NCBI GenBank assembly: GCA_001687465.1
Contig: LVLI01000055.1
Location: forward strand, 49,483-69,482
Direction of reading: 5' to 3'
Length of the DNA: 20,000 nucleotides
Source of the DNA: Halocafeteria seosinensis
Taxonomy: Eukaryota
Position 1 is the first letter of the stretch, and each line of letters begins with the position of its first letter. The notes under the pieces are model-generated. The model worked only from the letters and a program-made list of their open reading frames with translations. It was not told where the DNA came from and did no database searches. Below, one piece after another: positions 1 to 20,000 of this stretch. The translations under genes were made by a program, and so were the position numbers.

Positions 1-1371
1 CATCGACAACAAGCGGGATGTTGTGCTCCTTGGTTATTCTTCTAAGTTCCTTCAAGGCGTAGGCACTCATTGGCTGCACTCCGCCTTCACCTTGGATGGC
101 TTCCATTACGACACACGCTGGTTTAGGGATACCAGATTCATCGTCTGTTAGACAAGTTTCGATGTACCGCATCACAGCCTTCTCTCCTTCTTCAGCGTCC
201 ATTCCGAATCTGCATGATAGATGAAAACTCGTCGTTGAAAGATGTACAGCTCGTGGTTTCAAAAAAACGCTAACATACGGCTGTCTGTAAGGATAGGGGT
301 AGGGGAAGAAGTGAACATCAGTCATAAGACCTTGTACAGCATTCTTGGCACCGAGATTGCCCATCATTGCCAAGGGAGCTTGTCCGTGACCGTGATATCC
401 TCCATGGAACGAAATCACTGAGCGGCGTCCTGTGGCAATTTTGCACATTTTGACAGCGGCATCCAAACAATCAGTTCCAGCGGGAGACGGGAAGTGTAGA
501 CGAGTCAATTCCTTGGGAAGAACACTTGCCAAGTCAGTCATGAATTTATCCTTCCACGGAGTGGCCATGTCAAGATGTTGCAACGGTGCCTTACTGTCCA
601 AGTACTGCATTTTCAACCGACGAGACGCGAAGGTAATTTTCACCGCAAAATATCCAACGAGTAACAAAGCGAAATACAGTTCACACTTACGCTTCTAATG
701 GCATCATGGAGAACTGGGTGGTTGTGGCCCAAAGCTAGAGTTCCAGCCACTCCCAAGCAGTCATAGTACTGCTTTCCATCGGTATCTGTGAGGATGATAC
801 CTTCGGCTTTCTCAATAGCAAAGGGGAACTTTCGCACATATCCACGTGCATTCGATTCACGGAGGGCCGAGTTCTGTATGGAATAGAATCGACAAAAGTG
901 ACTTCCTGTGGGCGAGAAAACTACAAAAAAGGCCTGGGTTATTCCGTTCCCCAGAACACCCCTGCCCGCGGAACTGAAGTGAAATTTCAGAACACAAGGG
1001 GCGGTTCCATAAGAGCTTCGGAACAGGTGCTTCAAAATCACTGATTTTGAGCCCTTCATGAGCCACACAGAGCAGAGAACGAAACTAGAGAAAGTGATCT
1101 AACGCATGCATACCTTGAGAATTTCGTTCTGAGAAAGGAAAGGGCACTTGCCGGCATTTCCGTCGACGGGAGACTTTTGCGTCACATGGGGTCCAAAGGC
1201 GGATACACCATGCTTTTCTTCCAATGCGTCCAAGTTCTTGGTCAAGTAGCCGACAGGACCTTTGTTGTTGACTGTGGAAGCAGCTCGACGAGCAAGAGAA
1301 GGCCCTTGCTGGCGAGAAGTGCTCATTAAAGAGCGTGAAACACTACGGGTCGCCATGGAAGCAGCTGCCAT
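1..1371 (-). CDS. ectB: Diaminobutyrate--2-oxoglutarate aminotransferase (class III PLP aminotransferase, EctB function, Dat/PvdH-like sequence type), 3'-truncated by the window edge, with an N-terminal mitochondrial-type presequence
   Basis: Inferred exons are 1371-1114, 873-691, 604-279 and 209-<1, with GT..AG introns 1113-874, 690-605 and 278-210; the frame is maintained across all three. The spliced protein contains RESNARGYVRKFPFAIEKAEG, YDCLGVAGTLALGHNHP, LDMATPWK, GRRSVISFHGGYHG, FFPYPYPYR, KPACVVMEAIQGEGG and IPLVVD(E), all typical of DABA aminotransferases. The catalytic Lys lies beyond the window. The ectB label rests on the ectA/ectC context. Confidence 0.9.
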
Positions 1372-1811
1372 TTTCACTGTTCAAAATTGAACGATTCGCG
1401 CAGTAAAACAGACAAGCGATTCAAAGCTTGGAATCAGTTGAAGGACAATTTTTTCTTTCGGAGAAGTTGACTTTGTGTCAAACACCTGAACTGGCTCAAT
1501 AATGGAATCTACGTCACTAGGCTGTTCCCGCGTTTGTGAAGTTGGAAATGGGGTGGACCGTCCCCCACGGGGCCCCACCGTGGACGCGAAATTGAAATAC
1601 TCAGCATTGGAGAATTCACTCGTTTCCTTTTGTTAAGAGCTAAAAGCTGCAATCAGGAGACAGGGTCGCTGCTCTTTGAACGACATACAGTTGATTGGTA
1701 ACATGATGTCTCAGTATCAAAGAAGGCAAACGGAGGATGCTGTAGACAGTACTGAGACGTATTCATTGCTTTGTTGGTGCCCTGTGGAAAACAGCGACTA
1801 ATATACGTGCA

Positions 1812-1827
1812 TTAATGACGTCATTAA
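1812..1827. promoter_or_regulatory. Perfect 16-bp palindrome TTAATGACGTCATTAA with a CRE core (TGACGTCA) in the ectB/aspartokinase divergent intergenic region
   Basis: The palindrome is read directly from the sequence. TGACGTCA is the established ATF/CREB bZIP site; function here is inferred. Confidence 0.45.
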
Positions 1828-1875
1828 CACGCCATATAGGTTGTACTATTGGAGGCTGCATGTCGAGTCATCACG

Positions 1876-1885
1876 GCCACGTGGC
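1876..1885. promoter_or_regulatory. 10-bp palindromic G-box/E-box GCCACGTGGC in the ectB/aspartokinase intergenic region
   Basis: The palindrome is read directly from the sequence, about 50 bp from the CRE palindrome; function is inferred. Confidence 0.35.
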
Positions 1886-2211
1886 ACACCGTCTTCCGCC
1901 TTATTTCATTGACTGCTGCCAGAATGCCCGGAACTATCCATACAGACGATACAAAAATGTACCCGACATGGCTACAACGCTTCTGGTAGATTACAGACAA
2001 AAGGACACCACGCAGTTGCCAATTGCTGACTCGCCCGGACTCCGGACTCCGGAGCCACCTTCACAAGTGAAGTGATTGACGAATCCTCTGACACAAACTC
2101 AAATTCTCAGGGATTGTTGAGGTCCGGATTTTGAACGTTTATCGTATTCACACTGTGTTTTATCGTCCTATATTTGTTGCGTACATATACAGCAACTCTT
2201 ATAACAGAAAA

Positions 2212-4234
2212 ATGTTGTCCAGTATTGCCCGTAATACTTTAAAAACCAGCAGATTCCTCTCTGCTCGGCCGTTTTCACAGGCTGCTGCCTCCGATCCCAT
2301 CCTCCAGTCCACCGACAGCGCTCAGTATCCTCGCGAGACCCTTGCCAGAAAAGTAATGAAGTTCGGAGGATCTTCTGTTGGTAATGCCGAGGCTTTATAT
2401 CGCGTTGCTGAGATTCTACGCAACGAGAAAGAGGAAGGAAACGAGTAAGTTGAAGGCTCTGAGGTGTTCTCCCAAAAACTACAAAAAGGGAAACCCGGGG
2501 GGAACAGGCAAGGTGTTCCGACTTGTGAGGGATATTTTTTTGAAATACCTCAGCTATAGCCGTCATTTTATAAGGGTTGCAATGGCGATACGAAGCTGGA
2601 AGTGCGATGCTACGATGCAAAAATGACTTGTCTATTCGGTGACGGTGTTTGAATCGCGTCTTAGGGGCTCGGAAAGGGGCAAAGACGATCTGGATACGTC
2701 TTAAACCTAGATGCGGAAGGCCGGTGCAACCTAGGGAGCATATGGTTCTTAGGCCTTTTACAAGTGTTTGATGGCTCTATATTCACGCTATTTACTCGTC
2801 TATGTTTGATGTTTTTGTGTACAGGCTTGTGGCTGTATTGAGTGCCATGTATGGCGTCACTGATCGCCTTGTAAACTCGGTAAAATATGCCGAACGAGGT
2901 GAAATGGACCCCGTCGGGAAGAACAGCGATGAGATCAAACTCTACCATGAGCGCACCATTGACTTAATGCTGGGTGACACCCCTTGGGCATCAAATGCCT
3001 GCAAGGAATATCTCCATGACACCATGCACGTAAGTAGTAATCCAGTGGAAGTAGAGCGACCGTTAGTGAAGTGAAGTCGGAAAACCGGGGTCAGGTTCAG
3101 GGGGAGTTAAAGGGGGAAAGCATTGAATTGTGTCAGACCCGGAGATGGGGATAGTGTTGTTAACTGACTATTTACCAAGGCAACTTGCACAAGCCATCTA
3201 GCAGACATCTAACCTGTTTTTGAATATTGTTGAACTTGCAGCAATGGTATGACCAAGTGCTCAACAACATTGCCGAGAAACAATCGTTCAATGACTACGA
3301 CATGGATCGTGTCAGCTCTATTGGCGAGAGACTGAGCAACTTTGTAATGAGTGCTTACTTGCGCAGCAGAGGAACTGGAAGCCACTTTGTCTCGGCTGAC
3401 CAGCTAATTGTCACCTGCGGCACCCACGGTAATGCTGAACCCGATCTTCAAGCCACCAGAGCACGTGTGGCCCAGCATTTGGAACCCTTGTTACAAGACT
3501 CCGTCCCATGCGTTACTGGTTTCTTTGGAGCTGGACCCAATGGCAAGGTTACTACCTTCGGACGTGGTGGATCTGACCTAACCGCTGCCGTTCTGGCCAA
3601 CACATTACGCGACGTCGGTGAAATGATTCTCTGGAAAGTGGAATGTGAAAAGAGAGACGATGGGTGGCTGAAGGAATGGAAGCCAGGTTTTACTGGTGTC
3701 GTTCATGATGCTGATGTGGACTATACTATCCCCGAGCTGTCTTATGACGACGCAGCTCAGCTCGCCGCTTTCGGAAAGAAAGTGCTCCACCCGTCTACTG
3801 TGTTTCCCGCCATCGAGAAGGACATTCCCGTTTATGTGAAAAATACAATCGACCCTAATCACCCCGGTACAAAGATCCACAGTGATGTCGACACCGACGT
3901 TCAGCCGGTTTCATCGATTACGAAAGCTGAGTTCAACTTCTGTGAACAAAAGCACGAGATACAAATGGGTGATTTCGATTGGGACAACTTGGGCGTTGGA
4001 CCCGATAACGCCGGCGTAGTCGTGCTCGTTGGAAACGGCGTCTACCGGAGTGTTGAGCTCCGAAAACAAATCTCGGCCGTTCTTGATGACAATAACATCA
4101 AGAAACACTTTCCTGTGCGAGTGAATGGAAGTGAAAATAACTTCTGTGTTGTGGTACCTAAATCGGAGATGAAGACTGCCGTCAAATTGCTACATAAGCA
4201 TATCATTGGATGGAGTGAATCCGACACTGAATAA
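2212..4234 (+). CDS. ask: Aspartokinase (about 476 aa) with a mitochondrial-type presequence and a short C-terminal ACT-like region
   Basis: Inferred exons are 2212-2444, 2825-3029 and 3242-4234 (introns 2445-2824 and 3030-3241, GTAAGT..CAG). Motifs: VMKFGGSSV, VAVLSAMYGVTDRL, SIGERLS, VTGFFG, TTFGRGGSDLTAA, LSYDDAAQLAAFGKKVLHP and IPVYVKNTIDPNHPGTKI. Confidence 0.93.
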
Positions 4235-4598
4235 GTGAGGATTGGAATGTGCCATCCTACTTGTACGTTTAATATTGGCTTCTTGGTTTAAAAATTGCCA
4301 TAAGTGTAAGTTCGATTACGAAAAACAATAATTTAAAGGACTCCTCTGGTTTTCTTTTACCGCCCTCAAATATCGAGGGCGAAGGTCGGCACGAATATAA
4401 TATTCGTAAATGCCGACACCCGTGGAACCGATGGCCATTGCTTTGTGATGGTTGTCTAATTTCCACATGAAAATGAAGTACGCTTCTCCCTAATACACTA
4501 ATTAACGCGCTGTACACTGATACGTACCCGAAGCCAGTGTATTATTTTTGCTTGCACGAGATCATCTGCGTTTCTATCAAGCACTTCACTAACACCTC

Positions 4599-5471
4599 TC
4601 ACTTTCCTGTGGCTTTCTCTTCCAGCTGTCGTACGGCTTCATTGATTTGGTCGTAGTTAAATGGGCCTATGTGGAAATGGTCCTCGGCCTCGTGACCTAC
4701 TCCATCGGGGAAGTCTTCTTCCTTGATCCAGGATTCTGTAATTTTCACATCTACTCCAGCCCGACGTCCAACCCCTTGGAAGAGGTTCCGAGAGGCTTCA
4801 TTAGTTGGTGTGACTGTTGCTTGGACATGTGTGACCCCTTCAGGACAAAGACGACGCGCAAGATGAGCTATCATCCTGCCTGCAATTCCTCGTCCGCGGG
4901 CTTTTTCGCCGACTCCGACTTGCCATACAAAAATGGCATGGCGTTCACGTGGGGGTCGGTACCCTTTAATAAAGCCAATAATTTCACCATCGAGTTCAGC
5001 CACTGCATATGTACCATCTTGTCTTGAATGGCCCTTGTATCTCGACGGGGAACCAAGGCAGGAGGAACGCACCTATACATTCATCCTGGAAATGCTTGCA
5101 GAAAGCTATATACGCGTACGCTGAATTGTTATCCAAAGTACCACTAAAGACGATATCACACCTGCAATAATTACACCCAATTAACTCAGTACAGGCAATG
5201 ACTGGAACAGGCAGTCAAGGGAAGCTTACATTCCCTTTGCATCGAGCGCTGTAGGCGCTCGAAATGTCACTCCATCTTCCGATTTGGCATCTATGAATCG
5301 TTGTTGCTCATAGTTCCCGACGGAGGAAGTATTGGAAGCAAAGCACCTCTGTATGGAGTGCACACGAGAACCAAGTATCCCGGAACAGGCTTCCTGGAGG
5401 GGTAATATCCCACTTCTCCGTGTCCATTGCGCTACTGCCTTCTGGAGGCTTTTCCGCGGGAAAGCTCTCAT
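4599..5471 (-). CDS. ectA: L-2,4-diaminobutyrate acetyltransferase (GNAT family, about 244 aa) with a mitochondrial-type presequence
   Basis: Inferred exons are 5471-5230, 5161-5073 and 5002-4599 (introns of 68 and 70 nt). The spliced protein reads FRAPTALDAKGMCDIVFSGTLDNNSAYAYIAFCKHFQDECIVAELDGEIIGFIKGYRPP..IFVWQVGV..ARGRGIAGRM..ATVTPTNEASRNLF..HEAEDHFHIGPF. This matches the EctA signatures LDxNSxYxY, FVWQVAV and HExE...IGPF. Confidence 0.93.
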
Positions 5472-5721
5472 AGTCTTTGTGCAGTACCTGGTGTTAACTC
5501 AGTCACATGTATAAACCGAAAACAAGGCAATCCGGCGTTGTATCATTGAAGTGAACTCTGGAGGCAGTGTTCCTAGGTGCATCGCATTCACAAGTACACT
5601 GAGGGGGAGAGGGTCTATAATAGCCCATTGCCATTAGTATATATCGACAGAATAGGATTGTTAGTTCTACAGATTCCGCACGTGGAAGTGAAGAGAGAAA
5701 AAGAAGAATTATTACGCAAGA

Positions 5722-6542
5722 ATGTCGTTCATAGCAGCATCAGTTGGGCGTCGTGGTGCTCCAGGAATTGTCCGTAGAGCTCTAGGGACTTGGAATGCGC
5801 CACAAATGCAGCAAAAGCGCGGGTTCATCCATCGGACGTTTGAGGATGTCAAGGAGGCAGGAAACCACCACATTGCGGCCTCGGGAACATGGGAGAGCCG
5901 AAGATACTTGCTTCGCAAAGACGGAATGGGCTTCTCCTTCCACCATACAATCCTGTATGAAGGTAAGGTGTTGCATTGGAACCGACTTGTCGATGCTTTT
6001 ATGACGGATTCTCCGTCCAGGTACTTCGACCCTGATATGGTATCGCAACCATGTGGAGGCGGTATTTATTACCCAAGGCGAAGGAGAGATCGAACTTGTG
6101 GATGAGAACCAAAAGGTATGGGACACTGACGCGCTGGATTTGGATCAGCACATTTTGTTTGAGACCATCAATGCGAGTCTACTGTCGTACCACAGGAAGG
6201 AGAAGGAGTGGTATATCCCTTGAAACCTGGAACTCTTTACGGCTTGAACGGCCACGAGCGCCACTACCTAAGAGCTACCAAGGGAGATTTGCACGTAGCA
6301 TGGTAAGACTGGTATCTGCATCAAGCTCTAGTCCATTAAATTTTATGATTGTTTTGCGTTCTCCTTCTCTTTCAAACCTATGCAGTGCATTCAATCCCCC
6401 TGTTGCGGGATCTGAGGACCACAATGATCAAGGTGTATACCCTGTTGTGGATGATGCTGACAACAAAATCTACGATTACAGCGTTGATGATTTGCAAGAA
6501 CTGATCAAGCCTCCTCAGGTAATGGCCAATAAGAAGAAATAG
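5722..6542 (+). CDS. ectC: L-ectoine synthase (cupin, about 199 aa) with a mitochondrial-type presequence
   Basis: Inferred exons are 5722-5962, 6021-6115, 6196-6302 and 6386-6542 (introns of 58, 80 and 83 nt). The spliced protein reads WESRRYLLRKDGMGFSFHHTILYEGTSTLIWYRNHVEAVFITQGEGEIE..PGTLYGLNGHERHYLRA..CAFNPPVAGSEDHNDQGVY. These are EctC signatures, with the Glu/Tyr/His metal-ligand positions apparently retained. Confidence 0.95.
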
Positions 6543-6777
6543 GCATGTCGCCTACTACTAGGTAGCTGGAACTCAAATAAATTCAAGTGAACCACTGTTT
6601 TAATACTCTGCAAAGTAAAGCTGCAGCTGGTCTTGGACCATTCCCATCACATAGCAAAGAGACGAAACCGTCAATGAAACCTATACCATCAGCAAGGGGG
6701 AGCCCACCCAGCGGGTATTTCAGACTCCGTGGCAGTTCAGTAAACCCAGCAATAGACGACTGAGTTTCTCAAGTGGT

Positions 6778-7986
6778 TTACTTTTGGCACACCTTCTTGT
6801 GCCGGTCAAAGTCAGCTTTCTTACACTTTTTATTGCAGTAGTATGCTTTGCGGCATTTGTTGCAAGCATTCGTTGCCCCAGGACTTTTGCAATGCATGCA
6901 ATGGCTATTTTCTTCTTCATCGTTGTCCGGGCAACAGTCAGAAGTCGTTGCTTCCGTGCTACCACTTTGTGGGCTTCTCATTCCACGCTTTGCCCTGCGA
7001 ATAAAAGGGAGAATTTGCGGTACCAATAATGAAGCCACACGCTCTGGCGTCATCGTTCCTGATGAATCCTTGCGAAAAGGATCCGCCCCAGCTTCCAATA
7101 GAAACTTGGAAGCTTCGAAATTGCCAGCCATGAGCGCACTCAATAAAGGCACATCCAGGAAGCGGTTCGGCATATTAGGATCAGCTCCAAATTGGAGTAA
7201 GATGCGTGCGAGATCGAGTCTGGGAATTCTCGTTGCGGCATGATAAAACGCCGTGTAGCCTCCACCGTCCTTCGCATCAACTCGACACCAACCGTTTTGC
7301 AGTACTAGCCGTAAGATTTCCTCGTGCTGTAACGGCTTGAAGTGATCACGAATATAATGCATTCTCTGAGATCCAGATACAATAAGTGACGTTAATGGAG
7401 TCCGTACAACCCAGCTACGCAGGTGTGCGTGCTTAGGAGCGTCAAAGTTCTCCTTGAAAGTCTGCAGATCCCCTTTGAAGGCAGCAACATGAGCAACACT
7501 TGGAAGTTCAGCAAGCGCTTCTTTTGTATGCATACGTGCCCCTTCTTCACCTTGCACTTTCCTCAAATCAGCAGCAGGACTGCCTGGCATTAAACCTGGA
7601 ACAAAGGATTGATCTCCATTGTCCATTTCGTAAAACTCCTCAAGTGTAGTCCGCAGACTTCTGTCGTCCGGCAGGTTTCGGATTCCTCTTATCAATGCTT
7701 CTTCGGCACGCGCGGGGATACCCAAAGTATAATAGGCTCGATACTGTCGAATGTAGGCCTTGGGAAAGGTGGGATCGAGAGTCTCTGCCTTGATACCGTC
7801 TTCCAGAGCCTCGGACACTTGGCCGCTTTTGAACAAAGCCGCCGATCGATTGCCGCGCAGGGTTGCAGAGTTATCCCCCAGTTCGATGGCTTTGTTGTAC
7901 AATTCGACGGCTTGGGCAAACTCCCCTTTCAGGAAGCACCGATTGGCTTGTTCCTTTACTTCCGCTGCATCAGCTTCAGTTCCCAT
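6778..7986 (-). CDS. TPR + ankyrin repeat + MYND zinc finger protein (402 aa, single exon)
   Basis: It has N-terminal STI1-like TPRs (KEQANRCFLKGEFAQAVELYNKAIEL..NRSAA..KAYIR) and ankyrin repeats (GYTAFYHAA..LLQFGADPN, LLEAGADP). The C-terminal MYND finger reads CMHC..CNKCRKAYYCNKKCKKADFDRHKKVC. Confidence 0.85.
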   Translation of the reverse strand: MGTEADAAEVKEQANRCFLKGEFAQAVELYNKAIELGDNSATLRGNRSAALFKSGQVSEALEDGIKAETLDPTFPKAYIRQYRAYYTLGIPARAEEALIRGIRNLPDDRSLRTTLEEFYEMDNGDQSFVPGLMPGSPAADLRKVQGEEGARMHTKEALAELPSVAHVAAFKGDLQTFKENFDAPKHAHLRSWVVRTPLTSLIVSGSQRMHYIRDHFKPLQHEEILRLVLQNGWCRVDAKDGGGYTAFYHAATRIPRLDLARILLQFGADPNMPNRFLDVPLLSALMAGNFEASKFLLEAGADPFRKDSSGTMTPERVASLLVPQILPFIRRAKRGMRSPQSGSTEATTSDCCPDNDEEENSHCMHCKSPGATNACNKCRKAYYCNKKCKKADFDRHKKVCQK

Positions 7987-8680
7987 AATGTGTTGACGTT
8001 TAAGGTTCTGCCGGCACTGGCCGTGATGATGTTGGTACCACAGTGTACAAATATACGAAGTAGTAGTTCAAGTAGAATTATGTCGGACTATCATGTCTGA
8101 CAAACAAACACGTTGTATGCGTCCATTGTGCTTGTGTTTTTAAACAATTTGCAATATGAGCCGCTGGTCAAAGCGGTAAGAATGCACTCTTGTGAAGCAA
8201 AAGTAAAAGCCCGTAAATTAGCGCCGCCGCAGCATAGCGTGCAATGCATGGCAATGCACAGTCTGACAAACCTCTGAGCAGCGCGCGGCATGGCACTTAG
8301 TTGCTTTTTCGGCTGCCTTTACCCTGTCGAGACGGGCCAAACTTTAAACACGTACGACCTCACAGAGCAAGCGTTATGCCATTTCCAGCCATGGTGTTCC
8401 CACCAACCACTCGCGTAGGGCACCTACCCCCCGAACTACGTCCGCGGTCAGCCCAGTGGCAGTGGCACCATGATACTGACCACGAATCGAGGCAATTCCC
8501 GTGTTGAAGTGGTGCTTCACAAAGCACCGCGACCAAAAAAAGCGCGCGTTAACCGCGATACCCAGCTCATTTGCCTCCCCATTCTCTCCATATCCACTCA
8601 TCCGAGTCGATTAGGTTATAAAAATGGGGAAAGAAATGGGCGAAGTCGAGTAGGGGGGAAAAGGTCTTGAAATCTGAGAG

Positions 8681-11600
8681 ATGGAGCCCTCAACGGCGAC
8701 GTCCTCCTCCAAGGAGGAGGAGGATAATGGCCCTCATGCTCCTTCAGAGGAGGACCAAGGACAACATGAAGCAACTGGTGGTGAAGGGAGTAGCAGCGCC
8801 ACAGGTGGTGAGCAGGAGGAGGGGAAGGAGGAGGAGGAAGAAGTGGATGCAGGTCGAGAAACGGCGGCCAACTTGCAGCAAGTTAACGCAGAAGCTGCAT
8901 TTGACTTTTTAGATCAGCAAGTGGAGAAAGGGGCGATTTCTTCCGAGCAGTACGTTGCCAACCAATCTCTGACACAATGTAGCCTTTCTTTGTTGGGTTG
9001 CACTGAATCTTTTATATATATATTTTTTTTTTCGTGTGTACCAATGACAGAGCGGAGGAACTACGCAGCCGATTCAAAGAGTTGCAACATACAGTATCCG
9101 AAACGGCCGAACAGGAGCAGAATAATGCTCAAGAGCTAGAGCGCCTTAGACGCGTCACTAGGGAAGAACAAAGAACACTGGACACCACGGTACGCTCGAA
9201 GGAACGCCTTACAGATGCGGTGGAACAACTTGCACAAGAAAAAGACGAGGTCAGATGAACTATGATGGGAAAACGTCTACGTGACACTGTCCTCAACCAA
9301 TTACTTCCCTAATGCAGGCTGCTCAAGAACTCGAAGAAGCAGAGAATGAGGATAGCACTTTACACTATGAACATAGCGAGCTCAAACGAAAACAGGAAGA
9401 GCTGAAGGGACAAGTGGAGGCTGTTCGTCAAGCCAACAAGGACTTAGTAGAGCCCGAATTAGAATCATTGATGGAAGAAATCAAACAAGGAAAGGAAGAG
9501 CTATCCAAATTAAAGAACTGGACAGAAAATGCGGAGAAAGAAGAGAAAGAAAAGCGCTCCAAAGTGGAACAACTCCTTGTCATGAAGGAAGAAGCAGCTG
9601 AAAGCCTGAGTATGATGCGGCAAGAATGGACAAGAGTAAAGAATGAGCCTGAAAGAGTAAAGTAAGTTGTTTACGTGTGGATGTTAAGAATGGGAGCGAT
9701 TGCGATGCTTGTCGATGCCCTCCATTTCTCTACAGCAAACAAGCGCAGAGCGTGCAGACTGCTGTCCGGGAAGTCAGTACCGAAGCACAGAAGCTGAACA
9801 ACAAGATCGCTGATGTTGATAATGAACTTTCACGACATATAGACAAGCGCTCTGAGGCAAGTAGGTTGCATTCACAGTTGCAATCATCAATCGACAAACA
9901 CCGGACAGATGTGGAGGAGTACCGTGCCAATGTGGCTGAACTAGATAAGAGTATCAAGATCGAAGAGCAGGAACACAAAGATCTAACTGAAAGGAAAATG
10001 ACATTGCAAGCGGAGCTCAAGCACGCCGCGAACAGTTTACGAGATGCTCAATCTTCCTTATCTTCCATGGAGTCTTCGTACGAACGAAGCAAGAAGGAAC
10101 TGAAGCGCCGGATGGATTTAGCAAACGCGGAGAAGGCGAAGGTTCCTGCTGCTGAAAATGACGTTGTAGATGCGACACATGCGCTGCGGGCCTTGGAGAG
10201 GGAACATGAAAGTATACAGAACCAACGGGGCAAACTCCGTAAAGATGTGGACGTGTTGGTGCATAAAGTATTGGTTCAAGAAGCTGGCGAAAGCAAGCTT
10301 GCGGAAAAGTTGCAGGAAACGTTAGATGTTGAAGCATCGCTAGAGCAAGAGAAGACGAATTGGAACAAGGAGGAACAATTGGCGTACAAGCAGATAAGTG
10401 CCTTGAAAGCACAGCGAGATCTGAAAAATCGCGAACTCTCTAGAACACAGCAGAAGATCAAAAGTAGTGAGGAAGAGCAACTCATGAAAAATTTGCAACT
10501 TACAGATCTCACAAAGCAAGCTAATGAAACTATCAGTAAGCTGAAGAACTACTCAAAACTATACGAAACGGTGAAGAATGAGAGAAACTCTTACGTGAAC
10601 GCCATACAAGCCTCGTCACAGGCATTAGCTGAGATGAAGGAGCGGATTAAAATATTACAGAATGAAGTGGAAATTTTACAAAATGAAAGCATTGCAAAAG
10701 ATAAAGCGCTGTCGAAGGAACGGCTCGCTCATGCAGACGCCTCAGTTCAGAGAGATGCATTGCGGTTTGAGACCAACAAATCACACGCTACTTACCGGGA
10801 AAAGCAAAGATCTGTTGAACAGCAGATCGTGCGGATTGATAGGTTAAACTCTGTTATATCGAACTTGGAGAAGACGATGCTTCAGCTGAAGAAGCAATAC
10901 GAAAAGGCTGTGGAGGATAGGAATCACACCGGCATACAGCTGATAGATAGAAATGATGAACTGTGCATCCTCTATGAAAAGTCGAATATTCATGAGGATA
11001 CGATGCGTAAAGGAAATGAATCGTTAGCAACATTGGACAGAGAGATACAAGAGCTTCAAATCAGGGAGAAGGATCTCGAACGGGAGCTTGACGTCGTCCG
11101 AGAAAAGTTCCCGAAGATGCCACAGTTGGCGGAGAGGGTGCTGTCGTTACAAAAAGAACTTGCTTCTGAACGGAAATTCACAGAGAAACTGTCGTCAGAA
11201 TTGGAAAACCCTAGCAACCACCGTAACTGGCAACCATTGGAAGGATTCGATCCTGATTCCGATAGGTTAAGTGAACAGGTTTCGGCGTTGGAACAACGGC
11301 TAAACGAAAAGAGAGAAAAGCTCCTAGAACGGGAACTGGTTTTGGAAGAGTTAAACTCCTTGAGTGAGAAGCTGAACGATAAAGCTGTAGAAGGCAAAGG
11401 TGCCACATCAGAGCGAGTTGATCAAGTCCATTCCTTGCAAGCAAAATTGCAGAATGTAACCAAAAAGATGATGGCATTGGTTTCAGAGTTATCCATGTAC
11501 CAGGCTACGAGTATGAAGCTCGAGGAAGAAAAGACCGAGCGCCAGAAACAAGTCGAAGAAGCCGAAGCTGCGTTACAGCGGGGTGAAGTACCTTCAGAGG

Positions 11601-11869
11601 AGGCTGTGCAAGCACTGCAACGCAAGGAGCGTTATCAAGAGGTACAGCGGTCCCGCAAAGAGCGGTTGAAAGAGTTGGAGAGGCAGAAGGAGATGCCAGC
11701 CTACGCAACGCGGACCACCGCGGAGCAGCGCCCGAATGCGTACGTGCCTGAAGGCGAAGCCATTGCTGTACCGAAACCTTACGGAAAACATGCTCCATTC
11801 AAGCCCCAGAAGCCCGGTGCCACTATGCGAAACATTCGAAAGCCACAACAGAAAGAAATTGAAGTTTAA
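8681..11869 (+). CDS. CCDC146: Coiled-coil domain-containing protein 146 / MBO2-like axonemal protein (about 981 aa)
   Basis: Inferred exons are 8681-8949, 9051-9249, 9318-9661 and 9736-11869. The protein is a long coiled coil with LYETVKNERN, GIQLIDRNDELCILYEK and KKMMALVSELSMYQA. The C-terminus TTAEQRPNAYVPE..PKPYGKHAPFKPQKPGATMRNIRKP is family-typical. The N-terminus is acidic and low-complexity. Confidence 0.85.
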
Positions 11870-12055
11870 TCTGGCCTTGGTCTTGTTTTAGTTATGCGCC
11901 GCACACTGAAGGCAAACAATCGAACAGCAGTGGATCGCTGATGAGCTACACACATGGCTCAAAACCAAGCAATATGTGCATTGGAAATAACTCCAACGAA
12001 TGTGTCTGTAATGCCCATGCCACAGGAAAATTCGGTGTTGGCTTAGGCTAAGGAT

Positions 12056-13096
12056 TTACCTCTTCTGCAGCTGTTCCCACAAGTTCCCCCGACGTTGTGC
12101 AGTCGCCCGAGCCCACTGCACACGGAACACATACAGTCAGTACTAGTAGATTCACCAAATAATACCTACGAATACGTACTTCCCCAGCTACCTGTTCAAT
12201 GAGTTTGGGATCCACCCCTTCGGTATTCCATTGATTCAATGAACCTAACGCGAAGGAATGCCATTGCTCATAGTCAACGAAATTTTGCCTTTTTTCTTGC
12301 GCCTCCTTGCTTGGTGTTTCAGGAGGCTCATGAAAGCTACACTCGGAAAGATCATAAGTATGGTTCTCATGAGAGACTTCACTGCTGCGGTCAGTTATAC
12401 GACTCGGTTGTTCTTGCGTATGGAGCGGTTTCTGCTCGTCAACTGCTCCCGATAAACATAGATTGAAAGCGCGACTCCACAAGTCGACAGAGCGTTGTCC
12501 GGGGCACTGCAGATAGCAAACGCCAACTTTGGGGTCGTACTGCTGGGCACCAAACCCATTATGAGGAGACGTACCTGTAAGATGACCGCACCCATGCGGC
12601 ATCCCAAAATAAACATACGATATTCGCGTTCTTCCAAAAGTGTCTCAATGCTTTGACAGCGGATTAAGCCTTTTGACGAAAGTCCAGACGATAAAAACTC
12701 CAGAGCCGCTTCGTCACTGTACTCAATGTTGTCCTCATCTTGGTCGTCATCATTTTGAGTGGCGGACGATTCTACCATCGTGGAAGCGGGACCCCATCGA
12801 AATGTATCTCTTGTCAAAATACACCACGTTTTCATCCACTGTCGAGGATTTTCGTTTTGAATAGCCTCCTGTGCAGCTTCCACGGGCGCTTCGTACGTAT
12901 GGCGTCCCCGGAGCCGTAAATACCCTTCCAAGAGTTTCGGCCCCCCTCCATCCGTCATCCCTGCGGCTGCCATCGATGCTGTGGTAGAGGTCTGTGGCGT
13001 CTGCTGACTGGAAAAATTCGACCAAACATCCCGATTACGCTCGGAAACTACATGAGAGGCAGCCGGAGTGCCTGGGATCTGGTTCATCATGCTCAT
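12056..13096 (-). CDS. Hypothetical protein with a PH-like domain
   Basis: Inferred exons are 13096-12575, 12506-12180 and 12115-12056. The 3' end is uncertain because an AG|GTAAAT donor at 12059 could add a further exon from 12005. PH-like elements: LLEGYLRLRG, WMKTWCILTRDTFRW, KGLIRCQSIETL and ILQCPGQRSVDLWSRAF. Confidence 0.55.
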
Positions 13097-13397
13097 GGAG
13101 CTGGCATGGAAGCTACCTGCTGGTATGCCGTCGCACTCATTCCTTCAACCATCACACATAATACACACACGAACGAGTGTAATGGCACGCTGATTTCGCT
13201 TCCTTCATAATTCAATGAACGAACTTCAACGACTCCCGGCTTCAACTTCACGAAGGTCGCCATTCATTTTCGGTATACACAAGAGTGAATTTCAGGATTT
13301 GTCATGCTTGGACAAGGTAGAATACATCCGTCATCATAAACGATCAATTTTTCTTCGGTCGAATTTTGTGCTTCATCATTGCAAGAAGCGAACAAAC

Positions 13398-14983
13398 ATG
13401 CTGGGTAGAAACATGAATCAATTCCGTAAAGCAGCTGCTCCTTTTACAAAAAGAGCTGCTCCATTGACTCAGACTGCTGGGACTGGAGTGCGCCTGTTTA
13501 CCAGCTCGTCACCGCTGATGAAGGCTGACTTTAAGAGTGGATCTAGCAAACCCAATGTGGCAATTGCTGGCGCGACAGGCGCTGTCGGCCAGGAATTCCT
13601 GCGTATTCTAGAGCAACGCAACTTTCCCATGAACGATGTAAGTATCCAATCCTGCTCTGCATACTTTTTTGTACTGCTATACCGTGAGGGTTGCATGGGA
13701 AAGGCTCCCGAAATGGCGTGGGAGCGCCTCGAGAACAGCCTGAAGTGGGATATTCCTGTGGTGTCTCTGTTCACAGGGCCACCACAGGGGTCCTTACCCT
13801 TTTTGTTGTTTTCCCCAAGGGGACGTTCTAGGGAGCTAGTTTGCCCTGTTCCGTCGGCGGGATTTGAGTGTGAAGTGTGAAGCTGAACCCGAAGCACGGG
13901 CTAGCTTCGCCGTCACCACCGGCGGAGTCATGCCGTATTTTTTACCTTGAGAATTGAACAAGTTATTTGATTCATTTCCCTGTTTCCTTCGCAGCTCAAA
14001 TTACTCGCCAGTTCCCGCAGTAAAGGCAAAAAGATGGAGTATGCCGGCAACGAAATCACGATCGAGGAACTGACGGAAGATAGCTTCAAAGATGTAGATA
14101 TCGCCTTGTTCAGTTGTGGCGGGAGCCAAAGCAAAAAGTAAGCGTCATAACATCCTTTAAACCGTCACATACGCTTCTATCATTGTTTGCTCGCCTTTAT
14201 TGGGAACGCAGATTTGCTTCTCCAGCTGTAAAGGATGGCTGCGTGGTTGTAGACAACAGCAGCGCCTTCAGAATGGACCCCAACACACCTCTGGTGGTTC
14301 CAGAAGTGAATCCATCTGCTGTAAAGGCACATAAGGGTGTGATAGCCAACCCTAACTGCTCTACCATTATCATGGTCGTGCCTATGTGGCCGCTTCACCA
14401 AGCTGCTGGTATCCAGCGGGCGGTTATATCCACCTACCAAGCTGCTTCCGGATCAGGTGATCAAGCCATGCGCGAGCTTGAGGAACAGGCGCGACAATGG
14501 GCCCGTGGAGAAACTGACTATAAGAAAGATATCTGGGGACGCCAGTACATCTGGAATGTGTTCCCTCACAACAGCGCTGTCGACCCTAACAACTTGTACA
14601 ACGAGGAGGAATTAAAGATGATCAAGGAGACTGGCAAGATTTTTGAAACTGATACCGTGCGTGTCGATGCCACGTGTGTGCGTGTCCCTGTATTACGTAC
14701 TCACTGTGAGTCAATCAACCTCACTTTCCGGGACACCCTTAAGGCTAGTGATGCTCTGGATATCCTCAGCAAAGCCCCGGGTATTAAGATAATTGACGAT
14801 ATCAAGAATAGTCAGTTTGCTGAGCCCCTCAATGCTTCCGATCAGGATGATGTGATTGTCTCTCGCGTCCGCCAGGACTTGAGTCAAGAAGAAGGAAAGG
14901 GGCTTAGTATGTGGATTGCTGGTGACCAGATCAGGAAAGGTGCTGCCACCAATGCCGTACAAATTGCGGAACTGTTGTTATAA
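13398..14983 (+). CDS. asd: Aspartate-semialdehyde dehydrogenase (about 384 aa, bacterial/plant type) with a mitochondrial-type presequence
   Basis: Inferred exons are 13398-13637, 13995-14137 and 14212-14983 (introns of 357 and 74 nt). Motifs: VAIAGATGAVGQE, LKLLASSRSKG, VDIALFS, VVDNSSAFRMD, PLVVPEVN, IANPNCST (catalytic Cys), STYQAASGSG, CVRVPVLRTH and DQIRKGAATNAVQIAE. Confidence 0.95.
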
Positions 14984-15486
14984 ACTTCTTTATTGTTATT
15001 GCATACATAGTTCTTTGTACTCTCTCAATTTCTCTCGCTGTAGCCTAAGAGAGGTACACTCCATCATGGCGAGGAGCCCTGATGAATTCACGTGTTTACA
15101 ATTGGCGGTCGAGTGTCATTGTTCACGTGCCCCAGTTTTCGCTCTACTCTTGCCCTGTTTTCAACAGCCAAAGATGGTAGGAAAGAAAACTTGGTCACTG
15201 GTCTCGTCGATCATGTGCGCAAAGAAATGGACCAGCAGAATTGCACCACCCGAAATAGTATATTGACCATTTACTTTCCCAAAGGAAGGACTTTGGCACC
15301 TTCCATGTGCACATGTGAAAACCCTCGGTGTAACTGGCCCAGTTAAGCTAGGTACAACTTGTTACGACTTCCAGCCGCCGGGAAGTCGCATCTGCGATTC
15401 GGGGATTATAAACCCCTTGATCCCCAAGTATTGTTCATTTACCTCGTGTTGTATTGCATAATAACAATCATCATCCACAACAAATC

Positions 15487-17464
15487 ATGATGCTATCGAA
15501 ATTGAGACGCCCTCTTATGGCGGCGACATCCAGACGGATATTGTGTCGGAACGCTTCCTCGTCCACCACCGCCGCCCCCGAGGGCGTGGATGAACCTGCA
15601 CTGGAGGGCAAGAAGGACGATGAATTCCCATCCTTCGCGCGCGCTCTTTTCCGAGGCGACGTGACCAAGAACCACGTCTACCCTTACCCGGAAATCCTCA
15701 CCAAGGAAGCCTCCGAGATGCTGTCCATGTTCATCGACCCCATGGACAAGTTTTTCAAAGAAACCAATGATGCCGCCAAGAATGACGAAACTGCGCAAGT
15801 CCCACCGGAAATTACCGAAGCGCTCAAAGAGATGGGTGCATTCGGTCTCCAGGTGCCCGAGGAACTCGACGGCGTAGGGCTGAATAATACGAGCTATGCC
15901 CGGCTCATTGAGGTCTGCGGGGCGTATGATTTGGGCATGGGAATTTATCTGGGAGCCCACCAGAGTATTGGGTTCAAAGGAATTCTCCTCTTTGGAAACG
16001 ACGCACAACGCAAGAAGTACCTCCCGCCCTTAGCCAAAGGAGAAAAAATTGCGGCGTTTGCGCTGACGGAACCGTCTTCGGGAAGTGATGCCAACAGCAT
16101 TCGAACCAAAGCAGTTCTCAATGATGCAGGAACGCACTACATTTTGAATGGAGGAAAGATCTGGATCAGTAACGGAGGCATCGCTGATGTTTTTACCGTC
16201 TTTGCTCAAACACCTGTTAAAGATGAAAAGACAGGAGAAACAAAAAACAAAGTGAGCGCATTTATTGTAGAGCGCGACTTTGGTGGCATCACATCTGGAC
16301 CTCCAGAGAACAAAATGGGTATCAAGTGTAGCAACACCGCTGAGGTGAGCTTTGAAGATGTCCATATTCCTGTTGAGAACCTTCTGGGAGAGGTTGGTGA
16401 AGGATTCAAAGTAGCTATGGAGATTCTGGTAAGTTCTGTTCAGTCGTTATTAGTATATCTTTAAGCTTGTTAGTATCCGTTTGGACTCGGCTGGCAACTG
16501 ATTTCTAATGTTGCAGAATAATGGAAGATTCGGAATGGGTGCAGCGCTCTCCGGGACTATGAAAGGTGTCATCAAAGGAGTGACAGAGCATGCTGCCTCG
16601 AGGAAACAGTTTGGGTACCTTCTAAAAGACTTCGACCTCATTCGTGGAAAGATTGCCAACATGGAAATGAAGTGCTATGCAGCAGAGAGTATGGCGTACG
16701 CCGTTGCTGGAAATATGGACCGAGGCGCCAAGGATTACCAGCTTGAAGCCGCAGTGTCGAAGATCTTTGCTTCCGAAGCTGCCTGGTATGTAGCTGACGA
16801 GGGTATCCAAGTCCTCGGTGGTGCCGGCTACATGAAGGACCTGCCCTATGAGCGTATTCTTCGAGACCTTCGCATTTTTAGAATTTTCGAGGGGACAAAT
16901 GATATCTTGCGAATGTTCATAGCCCTTACTGGCTTACAAAGTCTCGGGAAAGATTTGAAACCTGTTTCCGATGCCATGAAAAATCCGATGGCCAACATTC
17001 CCACATTATTGCCGGAAGCAATCTCCATGATGAAACGACGGTTCGGAATATACGATAATCCCACTGTGGACTGGGCCCCGAAAGCACTTGCCCCTGCTGC
17101 TGATTGTATCAGTAAGAGTACTGGGTTATTTGGGGCCGGTGCAAAAGACCTCCTCATGAAGTACAACAAGAAAGTTATCGAGCAACAGATGGAGCTTGAG
17201 AGAGTCGCGGACTGTGTAATCGATATTTACGCCATGGCTGCCACTACCGCTCGCGCAACCAGGGCAGTAGACCAAGGACTGGAAACGGCGGACCACGAAG
17301 TGATGTTGGCCAATGCTTTCGCGAAAGAAGCTGCACGTCGGGTCCAACAAAACGTTGCTAGAATCACTGGAAGCGGAAAAGACATTGACGACTGGAAGAA
17401 GAAAATTTCAGACAATGTTTGCGAACGAGGGGAGTATGTACCCACTCATCCGCTCGGATTTTAG
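15487..17464 (+). CDS. ACADVL: Mitochondrial very-long-chain acyl-CoA dehydrogenase (VLCAD/ACAD9 family, about 629 aa)
   Basis: Inferred exons are 15487-16428 and 16517-17464 (88-nt intron). Motifs: [48 protein letters not shown] and [21 protein letters not shown] (catalytic Glu). It has a VLCAD-type C-terminal extension ending HPLGF and an Arg-rich presequence. ACADVL versus ACAD9 cannot be settled by eye. Confidence 0.88.
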
Positions 17465-17571
17465 CTGTCGTCGCGATCAAAGCTTAGCTTAGAAATGCCA
17501 AGGTCGGCGTGATGCCAGTACTGTCCAAATCTTTTTTGTTGCTCCTGTTTTCTCGGAAGTTGTGTAGGCGA

Positions 17572-19283
17572 TTATGAACCACTGTGATGAAAATGTACTC
17601 TAGAATGGAAATGAATTATGTCTTTACATAGCCGGCTCAGCATCCCCACTAGGGGCAAGTAAGAGAGCCCGTTGACTGTGCGGTCCACCGCCGGTGACGT
17701 AAATAGCTGGAATACGGGCGTTCTTAACAAGTACAGGACCCACATTCGCTTTCTGCGGCTAAGTTCGTTGTATTCAACGTCGGTGAGACAGTGCTGCGCG
17801 GCATCTGCATTCAGAAAATCCGAGACGAACCCAATTCCCCAAATGGCCAATCTTAGAAGTAACGAGGCGGTATGAGCCGCCGAGCGTTCAATTACACTCC
17901 GCAACATGCCCTGTTCTGGATTTGAAGGAACTCGTGGCCATGCACTACAGTATTCACCTCGGCCACTAAAAGCATCAAGCAAACTATAGGCGTGCTTCCA
18001 CAACCCTTGTTGTGTCATTCCTCCACCACCTTCCCAAGCAGCGTACATAGAACAATAATAACTCGTGGCATCAAAAACCATTGAAACGATTAATGCCTTC
18101 CATGATCCCCATCCTGCTAATTGTGAAGTTGATGCATACGCTACTGGGCGAAGTATGTGCAGCAACTCGCCAAGTACGCGGATGTTGCTGACATCGACCG
18201 AGTCACACTGCCCCTCGATGTATTCAGAGGATGACGCCAGTCGTTCATCGTCAAGCTTAAAACGCATACCCGTATTTCTCCCTTTCCACCATCTCGGTGG
18301 ATTTGACGCACGGTCTGCCGGCTTTTTGTCTACTCGTTCGATCCGTCCCTCGTCAATCAGATGGCGTTTCTTTGACTTCAGCAAGAGTGTTAATTTCAGG
18401 GCCGCTCTGACGATTTCAATGATGAGAATAAGTCTTCTTTGGATTTTTTCTCCACCACCATGCCTTGCGGCTAGCTCTAATACAACATCCACCGAGGATA
18501 AGGCCGTAAGAGCCCAACGAATACTTCTTTCCTCGAAAGGCACCTCCAGTCGGGGGACACTATCATATGATCGAGGCAATCGCTCAAACGCATCCAAAGA
18601 TTTTTCTTTCTCGTTTTTCTCTTCATGATTGCCCTGCTTTTGTTCTGTATTCGACTTTCCGTTGGTATGCTCAGAGCCGTCAACATGGCCATTCGTTTGC
18701 ACGGAAGCAGCTGCGCCGCCGCTTTGGGACGACGGGTTAGTAGCAGCAAGATCAATTCCATGACTGTTCACCACCGTAGTGTTCGTTTTGGCTGCTGTGG
18801 ATGCGGCTTTCCCGTCAGACGAGTCTGCAGAGGCCTGGGTATTGGATTCATCCACTTTGGCACCCCTATCCTCCGGGTTCACGAGGATGCCATCGTTGTA
18901 CAAGGCCAGCAAATTTGACAGACTATAGACTCCTTCACTTATCAGCTCACCGGTTGTTCCCAGACCGCTCTGCAAACAGAACAATGACTCGAATAAAGCT
19001 GCATTCATGCAATAAAGTCAAAAAGCAGGCTTACAGGTACCAGGAAGCTGGCAGCTCGTCCCACCTCCTCCACTCTGCGTGCTTTCTCGGGGTTCTCTTT
19101 CACCCAGCGGCGGTACTGGGCAAGAGACTCTAACAGATCAAACGATCCAGCGCTGTTACCAATACTGTCCCCGTGTGTACAGGAACTGGAGACGCCTGCA
19201 TCGGTCAACGAACTGGCGGAGGCTGTGGTGGTTGGTTCCTCCTCACTCATGCCCCTCTCGTTCTCTCCACTTTCTTCGGCCAT
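17572..19283 (-). CDS. PEX16: Peroxisomal membrane biogenesis protein PEX16 (about 548 aa)
   Basis: Inferred exons are 19283-19035 and 18969-17572 (65-nt intron). Pex16-typical segments: YRRWVKENP, SEGVYSLSNLLALYND, IEIVRAALKL, GELLHILRPVAY, SWKALIVS and ELSRRKRMWVLYLLRTPVF. Confidence 0.8.
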
Positions 19284-20000
19284 TGTACCCTGCGCTGACT
19301 ATAATGATAATGTAGTGCCTGTCATGATTCGAAACAACATCGAAGAGGGCAGAAATGACGCTAATGGTCCCGTGAAAGGCCTCCCATTATAGTGAACGAA
19401 ATGATTGTAGCTTTCCGAGGGAGGGTACCTACTTCCGAAGTCCTACTTCGCGTCGAAGTTCGCGATATGTACACAGCCCCTATTAGTATTGAGTCAAATG
19501 CCAGTGGAGAGAGAGAGAGAGGTGCTCGTAGACCCGCGAAACGAAGGAGAAGCGAGACCAGTAATGGATCTGGTAGCAAAGGACCCAACGAGTACAGTTT
19601 ATGTCNATNTAGCCAGCAGCAGGAATACCTGGAATACCACACCGTCGCGGCAGAAGCAGAGAAGATGCAGCGGAAACTACGGACATCTGAGGAGGCCACC
19701 ACACGGAAAGTATCCCGTTCGCGATAGAGGCGATGGGAGGCTTCGGAGAAGACGCGATCACGTTCCTCAAGAGAACTACCAGGAAAGCACCTGGGGACAC
19801 ACACACAAATGTGACAGATAGCCCACCGGCCGGGAAGTTGACCACATCCTCTTAACGAGGAGCGGTATGCGCCCGTGTTAAGCAGCGACGGGCCCGCTGT
19901 TCCTGCAGCCTTGCTGACATGCGCCGTGAGGGAACACAGCACTGGTTAAGCTCAGGAGGCATCGGGGGAGGAGCCATGCCTGCGCCCACAATGTCAGAGG

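What the first reader, a model, noticed from the sequence alone, without database searches (positions are those of the whole stretch)
1..6542. Eukaryotic, intron-containing ectoine biosynthetic gene cluster (ectB-ask-ectA-ectC)
Seen: four adjacent spliced genes encode DABA aminotransferase, aspartokinase, DABA acetyltransferase and ectoine synthase, with at least 10 GT-AG introns, followed by clearly eukaryotic genes (CCDC146, PEX16, ACADVL). Established: ectABC(-ask) is a prokaryotic operon for the osmolyte ectoine. To my recollection ectoine genes are reported in only a few microbial eukaryotes, such as the halophilic stramenopile Halocafeteria seosinensis, so this may be that organism or a relative. 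Inference: this is a nuclear metabolic gene cluster of laterally acquired genes giving salt tolerance to a flagellated protist.
Basis: partly seen in the sequence, partly recalled or inferred. Interest (0 to 1): 0.92.

Follow-up and report, generated by a model that had tools for sequence, protein, structure and literature searches.

The report
Protist ectoine gene cluster, already described
Four neighbouring spliced nuclear genes, plus a fifth nearby, encode the enzymes predicted to make the salt-protectant ectoine in a flagellate that is likely Halocafeteria seosinensis, where this cluster was published in 2016; what may be new is that two of the enzymes are not the usual bacterial operon versions and that the linkage likely extends to marine relatives.

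Summary
ectB-like(-), ask(+), ectA(-) and ectC(+) are real. All 10 GT-AG introns are skipped by public contigs, and one unspliced contig spans 1-6800. The spliced frames are open.

The same order, asd three genes downstream, introns and predicted mitochondrial targeting were published for Halocafeteria seosinensis (PMC4987115). The locus is therefore already known. The host is inferred from gene order, GC and homologues, not matched by sequence.

Added here: the 'EctB' is Dat-type. It is 41-57% identical to bacterial enzymes without ectA/C nearby (0 of 50 loci) and 30-36% to 42 ectC-adjacent EctBs. The ask belongs to a clade with its own motif (named members are protists) and is 22-31% identical to operon Ask. 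In three Cafeteria strains, ectB and ask lie 3-4 accessions apart. This suggests an old protist pathway rather than a recently captured operon. AU tests do not reject sister status to the operon enzymes, so a mosaic origin is unproven.

The parts
1..1371 (-). DABA aminotransferase, Dat-type 'EctB', 5' part only. Exons 1371-1114, 873-691, 604-279, 209-1 (runs off the window). Arg-rich, acid-free N-terminal extension.
   Evidence: closest named homologue Cafeteria roenbergensis, 68%
1372..2211 (.). 840-nt spacer between divergently oriented ectB and ask (shared promoter region inferred)
   Evidence: gene models; no notable repeat
2212..4234 (+). Aspartate kinase, 476 aa. Exons 2212-2444, 2825-3029, 3242-4234. 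Member of a clade with a KVE...W..G.(V/I)(V/I) motif in place of TDVxG.
4599..5471 (-). EctA, DABA acetyltransferase, 244 aa. Exons 5471-5230, 5161-5073, 5002-4599. Start inferred from the only in-frame ATG giving an open frame in 5301-5500.
5472..5721 (.). 250-nt spacer between divergently oriented ectA and ectC (shared promoter region inferred)
   Evidence: gene models
5722..6542 (+). EctC, ectoine synthase, 199 aa. Exons 5722-5962, 6021-6115, 6196-6302, 6386-6542. 9 of 10 listed metal/ligand residues kept (Asn38 position is His).
13398..14983 (+). Aspartate-semialdehyde dehydrogenase (asd), 384 aa from the ATG at 13398 (start inferred; 13413 also possible). Introns 13638-13994 and 14138-14211. 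Three genes lie between it and ectC.

Best explanation
This is a spliced nuclear cluster of ask, ectB-like, ectA and ectC genes with asd nearby, likely the published Halocafeteria seosinensis locus, predicted to make the osmolyte ectoine inside mitochondria. Shown here: five spliced open frames, their families, EctC catalytic residues and N-terminal extensions. Inferred: import into mitochondria, then aspartate -> aspartyl-phosphate (Ask) -> aspartate semialdehyde (Asd) -> 2,4-diaminobutyrate (Dat-type aminotransferase) -> N-acetyl-DABA (EctA) -> ectoine (EctC). The genes would be transcribed separately from two head-to-head pairs, with EctD elsewhere in the genome hydroxylating ectoine at high salt (from the paper). 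The enzymes belong to protist-wide clades shared with bicosoecids and dinoflagellates, so the pathway likely predates this halophile.
For: Families. Splicing and open frames. EctC keeps the equivalents of Trp21, Ser23, Arg25, Thr40, Tyr52, Glu57, Tyr84, His92 and Phe106. EctA's best PDB hits are DABA acetyltransferases. The first 30-55 residues of the five proteins hold 3-6 Arg and 0-2 acidic residues. Same gene order and asd position as PMC4987115. Window GC is mostly 0.45-0.52 versus 46.8% for H. seosinensis and ~70% for C. burkhardae (bioRxiv 10.64898/2026.06.25.734631). The same aminotransferase clade occurs fused to EctA (P0159, P0167, P0240) and to EctC-EctA (P0319), which ties this Dat-type enzyme to ectoine. 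Window EctC falls in a 10-row clade (100/100) with bicosoecid and dinoflagellate proteins.
Against: No enzyme assay and no ectoine measurement in this organism (stated in PMC5796728, passages). No targeting predictor was run here. The EctB catalytic lysine lies outside the window. EctC has His at the Asn38 position. The host was not matched by sequence: the nearest EukProt EctA (P0260) is only 68% identical, so it is either a paralogue or from a different species, and a 90%-identical ask relative exists on an unnamed 61-kb contig (P0001). Transcript response to salt is weak or mixed in the paper's Table 1.
Confidence: 0.85

Rival explanations
1. A preformed bacterial ectABC-ask operon was captured whole, then rearranged and given introns and targeting signals (the published origin model).
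For: The same four gene kinds as bacterial ectABC-ask are adjacent. AU tests do not reject the protist aminotransferases as sister to operon EctB (p 0.55 and 0.51) or the ask clade as sister to Ask_Ect (p 0.42). The donor could be an unsampled or extinct lineage. My bacterial sample is small and lacks Bacillota operon EctBs.
Against: The window enzyme lies outside the sampled operon-EctB clade (23 rows, SH-aLRT 100, stem 0.84; same under C20). It is 30-36% identical to 42 ectC-adjacent EctBs, whereas 430 curated EctBs share 51-91% with P. lautus EctB (PMC6915088, passage). The ask is 22-31% identical to 8 operon-linked Asks. Strands alternate. The paper itself did not recover the ask with Ask_Ect and found asadh not bacterial-like.
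Confidence: 0.35
2. The cluster is a mosaic assembled within eukaryotes from separately acquired parts (ectA and ectC from ectoine producers, a Dat-type aminotransferase, a protist aspartate kinase and asd), drawn together like fungal or plant metabolic clusters.
For: Both free trees nest the protist aminotransferases in Dat (SH-aLRT 96 and 97). 0 of 50 bacterial loci at >=40% identity have ectA/C nearby and 22 have ddc. The ask motif is in 30 of the top 34 hits and 0 of the other 86. Two head-to-head gene pairs. Other protists use fusions in varied order (C-A, A-C, A-B, C-A-B).
Against: AU tests inconclusive. Long stems on the operon clades. The genome scan covered 1 of 64 parts. Most members of the 'protist' clades are unnamed, so their eukaryotic origin is inferred.
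Confidence: 0.45
3. The aminotransferase serves polyamine (1,3-diaminopropane) or other DABA use and is not an ectoine enzyme.
For: Best profile scores are to Dat families PRK06938/TIGR00709, not TIGR02407. Its nearest named bacterial relatives sit beside ddc (L081-L083).
Against: It sits beside ectA and ectC here, and its clade is fused to EctA/EctC in other organisms. No ddc was seen in the window, but the region left of ectB is not visible. Dat and EctB catalyse the same reaction (family names).
Confidence: 0.07
4. Bacterial contamination or a chimeric assembly.
For: Bacterial-type gene families. No single X1 contig spans from ectC to the far eukaryotic genes.
Against: Twelve spliceosomal introns in the five genes are skipped by independent contigs. 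One contig runs from the cluster into the next gene. Depth and GC are even. Closest named homologues are protists.
Confidence: 0.01

Closest known systems
Halocafeteria seosinensis ectB-ask-ectA-ectC cluster, contig c75 (Harding et al. 2016, PMC4987115)
   Same: Gene order, introns in every gene, asd three genes downstream of ectC, N-terminal extensions, and genome GC near 47%. Probably the same locus.
   Different: Nothing shown to differ. The sequence could not be compared (supplement archive too large). The passages I read call the aminotransferase bona fide EctB and the arrangement bacteria-like; I find it Dat-type and the strands alternating.
Bacterial ectABC(D)-ask_ect operon
   Same: Same predicted chemistry. 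EctC 38-52% and EctA about 35-39% identical to operon enzymes. EctC catalytic core kept.
   Different: Separate spliced genes on alternating strands with N-terminal extensions. Aminotransferase only 30-36% identical to operon EctB; ask 22-31% to operon Ask.
Dat (DABA:2-oxoglutarate aminotransferase, TIGR00709/PRK06938; dat-ddc loci)
   Same: 41-57% identity, best profile scores, and nests with it in the free trees.
   Different: Linked here to ectA/ectC and not to ddc. Placement is not secured by AU tests.
Cafeteria roenbergensis (burkhardae) FNF27_02640 / FNF27_02643 and protist EctC-EctA(-EctB) fusions
   Same: Same aminotransferase (68%), ask and EctC clades; ectB and ask 3-4 locus tags apart.
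   Different: Marine host (recalled; the paper counts it among marine protists). Whether the intervening tags are ectA/ectC was not seen. In one strain the two accessions are far apart (KAA0160377.1, KAA0162106.1; pairing inferred).

Membership tests
EctC ectoine synthase | PF06339/PRK13290 match over the whole domain | tested here: met
   Four exon pieces cover model positions 3-125 in order.
EctC ectoine synthase | Iron ligands Glu57, Tyr84, His92 and ligand residues Trp21, Ser23, Arg25, Asn38, Thr40, Tyr52, Phe106 | tested here: met
   9 of 10 kept; His at the Asn38 position (mapped by motif).
EctA | TIGR02406 above cut-off; closest solved structures are EctA | tested here: inconclusive
   Last exon alone scores 106.6 bits against a whole-protein cut-off of 120.6. 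The top three PDB hits are EctA. The full spliced protein was not scanned.
Operon-type EctB (TIGR02407 equivalog) | Better match to TIGR02407 than to Dat models; >=51% identity within the family; inside the EctB clade | tested here: not met
   TIGR00709 177 bits versus TIGR02407 115 on the same piece; 30-36% identity; outside the clade.
Dat-type DABA aminotransferase (TIGR00709) | Best profile match and phylogenetic nesting | tested here: inconclusive
   Similarity and both free trees agree, but AU does not reject the alternative. The protein is partial, so the cut-off cannot be tested.
DABA aminotransferase (either type) | PLP-binding lysine (Lys274 of P. lautus EctB) | not testable with these tools
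   Encoded beyond the window's left edge; no genome is held.
Ask_Ect (ectoine-operon aspartokinase) | Groups with operon-linked Ask | tested here: not met
   22-31% identity to 8 operon-linked Asks; separate clade with SH-aLRT 99. PRK09181 (recalled as the Ask_Ect model) scores 58 bits versus 181 for PRK09084. Sister status is not rejected.
Bacterial ectABC operon | Co-directional, polycistronic, intronless | tested here: not met
   Strands -,+,-,+ and 10 introns.
H. seosinensis c75 locus | Order ectB-ask-ectA-ectC; asd three genes downstream; introns | tested here: met
H. seosinensis c75 locus | Nucleotide identity to the published contig | not testable with these tools
   No genome held; supplement unreadable.
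Functional ectoine pathway | Ectoine made in vivo; enzymes active; mitochondrial location | not testable with these tools
   Needs experiments.

The most novel reading that the evidence does not exclude
Protists run their own old, mitochondrial ectoine pathway. It was built in eukaryotes from mixed parts (a Dat-type aminotransferase recruited as EctB, a protist-specific aspartate kinase, bacterial EctA/EctC), kept together as a gene cluster across bicosoecids including the marine grazer Cafeteria, and as fusion proteins in dinoflagellates and others. The Halocafeteria cluster would then be an inherited, eukaryote-assembled metabolic cluster and not an operon stolen from halophilic prey.
Probability: 0.4. 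Interest if true: 0.6.

Novelty: already known. Interest (0 to 1): 0.27.

Why it matters
The locus itself is a published example of a bacterial-type osmolyte pathway in a eukaryote. The additions would matter if they hold. They would change the origin story from 'operon taken from prey in brine' to an older protist pathway with mixed parts and conserved clustering. Marine heterotrophic flagellates and dinoflagellates would become candidate ectoine sources. Operon-based gene screens would miss protist EctB because it scores as Dat. A Dat-type EctB and natural EctC-EctA-EctB fusions are also testable parts for ectoine production.

Tried and rejected
1. No whole genome is held, so the ectB 3' end, ectD and any second ectA could not be looked for.
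2. No RNA holder is listed among the runs. Contig depth was not used for expression.
3. A metagenome scan with the ask alignment returned mostly ordinary aspartate kinases from 3 of 64 parts. None of its 80 loci had ectA or ectC, so no eukaryotic contig with the cluster was obtained.
4. A genome scan with Cafeteria EctB and a viral scan with Cafeteria ask found nothing.
5. The EctC search and look-up of 10 of its 150 listed hits gave no Cafeteria accession, so the genes between FNF27_02640 and _02643 remain unseen.
6. The firm claim 'EctB derives from Dat, so the cluster is a mosaic' was lowered after three AU tests failed to reject the alternative. The careful EctB tree did not finish, and the quick C20 tree was used.
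7. The EctA tree did not resolve its origin.
8. No meaningful repeats in 1300-6600.
9. The ESM Atlas added nothing beyond 'aspartokinase'.
10. Three look-ups of earlier findings were empty.
11. Paper searches listed no paper whose title or abstract start describes a Dat-type EctB in protists or ect clustering in Cafeteria. One search listed 20 of 36 papers, and the library is incomplete. Harding's supplementary trees S6-S10 could not be read and may already show the Dat affinity.
Full report
OBSERVATION. The window's first 6.5 kb hold four coding genes on alternating strands: an aminotransferase (-, start 1371, running off the left edge), an aspartate kinase (+, 2212-4234), EctA (-, 5471-4599) and EctC (+, 5722-6542). 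Family scans of exon pieces support each. Laying four public contig sets on 1-6800 gave ten joints, all GT..AG on the gene's strand. Nine appear in X2, X3 and X4, one in X2 and X4 only, and none in X1, which carries the stretch unspliced in one 13,371-nt contig. The runs are not on record as RNA, belong to one study and may be the window's source, so they confirm the gene models but are not independent occurrences. Removing the introns gives open frames of 325 (partial), 476, 244 and 199 aa. Downstream lie a TPR-ankyrin-MYND gene, a CFAP58/CCDC146-family gene, an unidentified spliced gene, asd (two introns), ACADVL and PEX16. X1 has depth in all 30 bins of 6400-19300, though in many pieces, and GC is even. 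There is no sign of chimerism.

WHAT IT IS. Harding et al. 2016 (PMC4987115; outline, passages and section 18 read; supplements unreadable) describe ectB, ask, ectA and ectC clustered on H. seosinensis contig c75. They report asadh three genes downstream of ectC, introns in all genes, predicted mitochondrial signals and four separate transcripts. The window shows the same order with three genes between ectC and asd. Its GC fits the 46.8% reported for H. seosinensis (bioRxiv 10.64898/2026.06.25.734631, parts 1-2 of 3 read). The closest named homologues are bicosoecid. I take the window to be that locus or one from a close congener; I could not match it by sequence. Against easy identity: a EukProt EctA (P0260, organism not named by the tool) is only 68% identical, and an unnamed 61,121-nt contig encodes a 90%-identical ask and a 74%-identical EctA piece. 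Two reviews (PMC5924519 and PMC5796728, passages) repeat the finding, call the kinase ask_ect and note that ectoine production was not measured in this species.

MECHANISM. Shown: five spliced genes cover every step from aspartate to ectoine. EctC keeps 9 of the 10 metal and ligand residues listed for P. lautus EctC (PMC6344544, passages; alignment of the relative P0320 to 5ONN; window positions by motif). EctA's top PDB hits are DABA acetyltransferases. All five begin with Arg-rich, acid-poor extensions. Inferred: mitochondrial import, enzyme activity, ectoine accumulation and co-regulation from two head-to-head spacers (840 and 250 nt). The paper's expression table shows ectB 1.3x, ask 1.8x, ectA unchanged, ectC lower and the unlinked ectD about 220x at 30% salt. 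The cluster therefore looks like a standing supply of ectoine, with salt control at the hydroxylase (inference).

WHAT I ADD. (1) The aminotransferase is Dat-type by similarity. It scores higher on PRK06938/TIGR00709 than on TIGR02407. Of 80 GTDB loci fetched with an alignment of its relatives (1 of 64 parts scanned), 50 are 41-57% identical to it; none of these has ectA or ectC within the fetched flanks (up to 6 kb a side, some truncated) and 22 have ddc. The three loci with ectA/C are 30-34% identical. Of 46 ectC-anchored loci from samples of three phyla, 43 had an aminotransferase beside ectC, and the 42 with long alignments are 30-36% identical. Curated EctBs share 51-91% with P. lautus EctB (PMC6915088, passage). 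Trees of 81 and 47 rows put the window protein in a clade with Cafeteria, another bicosoecid, a dinoflagellate, unnamed sequences and EctA-fused forms (SH-aLRT 99-100). That clade nests in Dat (96-97), apart from operon EctB (100). However, AU tests do not reject joining the protist clade to operon EctB (p 0.55 and 0.51; the constrained trees scored slightly higher). The safe statement is that it is not inside the sampled operon-EctB clade. Fusions of this clade to EctA and to EctC-EctA (P0159, P0167, P0240, P0319) argue that it does the EctB job.

(2) The ask belongs to a clade (SH-aLRT 99, 16 rows) with a motif found in 30 of the top 34 hits and 0 of the other 86. Its named members are Cafeteria and Sexangularia. 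Identity to 8 operon-linked Asks is 22-31%. Sister status to Ask_Ect is not rejected (p 0.42).

(3) Window EctC falls in one clade (100/100) with bicosoecid and dinoflagellate proteins, many of them EctC-EctA fusions, against 24 bacterial EctCs. The EctA tree is unresolved.

(4) Linkage beyond this genome. Cafeteria EctB and ask accessions are neighbours in three of four sets: FNF27_02640/02643, FNF29_05179/05175 and KAA0160638.1/KAA0160641.1. The fourth pair is far apart. This suggests, without showing the DNA, that they lie on the same contigs. The intervening Cafeteria genes were not seen.

VERDICT. The feature is real, correctly read and already published. The residual interest is the hint that the pathway is an old protist system with non-operon parts and conserved clustering, including in marine flagellates. 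My searches did not list a paper stating this, but Harding's unread supplementary trees may bear on it. I give the ectoine-pathway reading 0.85, the bold origin reading 0.4 and overall interest 0.27. Other papers appeared only as search listings; PMC5447177 and PMC12806439 were read as passages.

Noticed in passing
window 13398-14983 (+): asd with two introns and an N-terminal extension completes the pathway. A minor contig form in X2-X4 reads differently at the second acceptor (14214, two other letters).
   Followed up: partly
window 6778-7983 (-): Intronless TPR-ankyrin-zf-MYND gene convergent with ectC; function not examined.
   Followed up: no
window about 8678-11869 (+): Flagellar coiled-coil gene with three introns. 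Pfam and PDB hits are CFAP58 family; CCDC146 versus CFAP58 was not resolved.
   Followed up: partly
window about 12048-13144 (-): Spliced gene (two introns) with no Pfam or NCBIfam hit, head-to-head with asd.
   Followed up: no
P0319, P0336, P0332, P0328, P0339, P0478: Multi-enzyme fusions in other organisms: EctC-EctA-EctB (851 aa, unnamed), EctC-EctA plus an EctD-named part (Symbiodinium natans), EctC-EctA (Bicosoecida sp. CB-2014, Biecheleria cincta), EctA-EctC (unnamed). An EctB-containing triple fusion is not mentioned in the Harding section I read.
   Followed up: partly
P0260 versus window 4599-5471: A 68%-identical EctA with a 4-residue deletion and a homologous N-terminal extension: a possible duplicate or a congener's orthologue.
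   Followed up: partly
window 1-19300: Many single-base differences and small indels between contigs and the window, consistent with two alleles; the window also has two Ns near 19600.
   Followed up: no
window 3224-4234, ask clade P0001-P0034: The usual TDVxG motif is replaced by a longer KVE...W..G.(V/I)(V/I) segment; a possible regulatory or structural insert, untested.
   Followed up: partly
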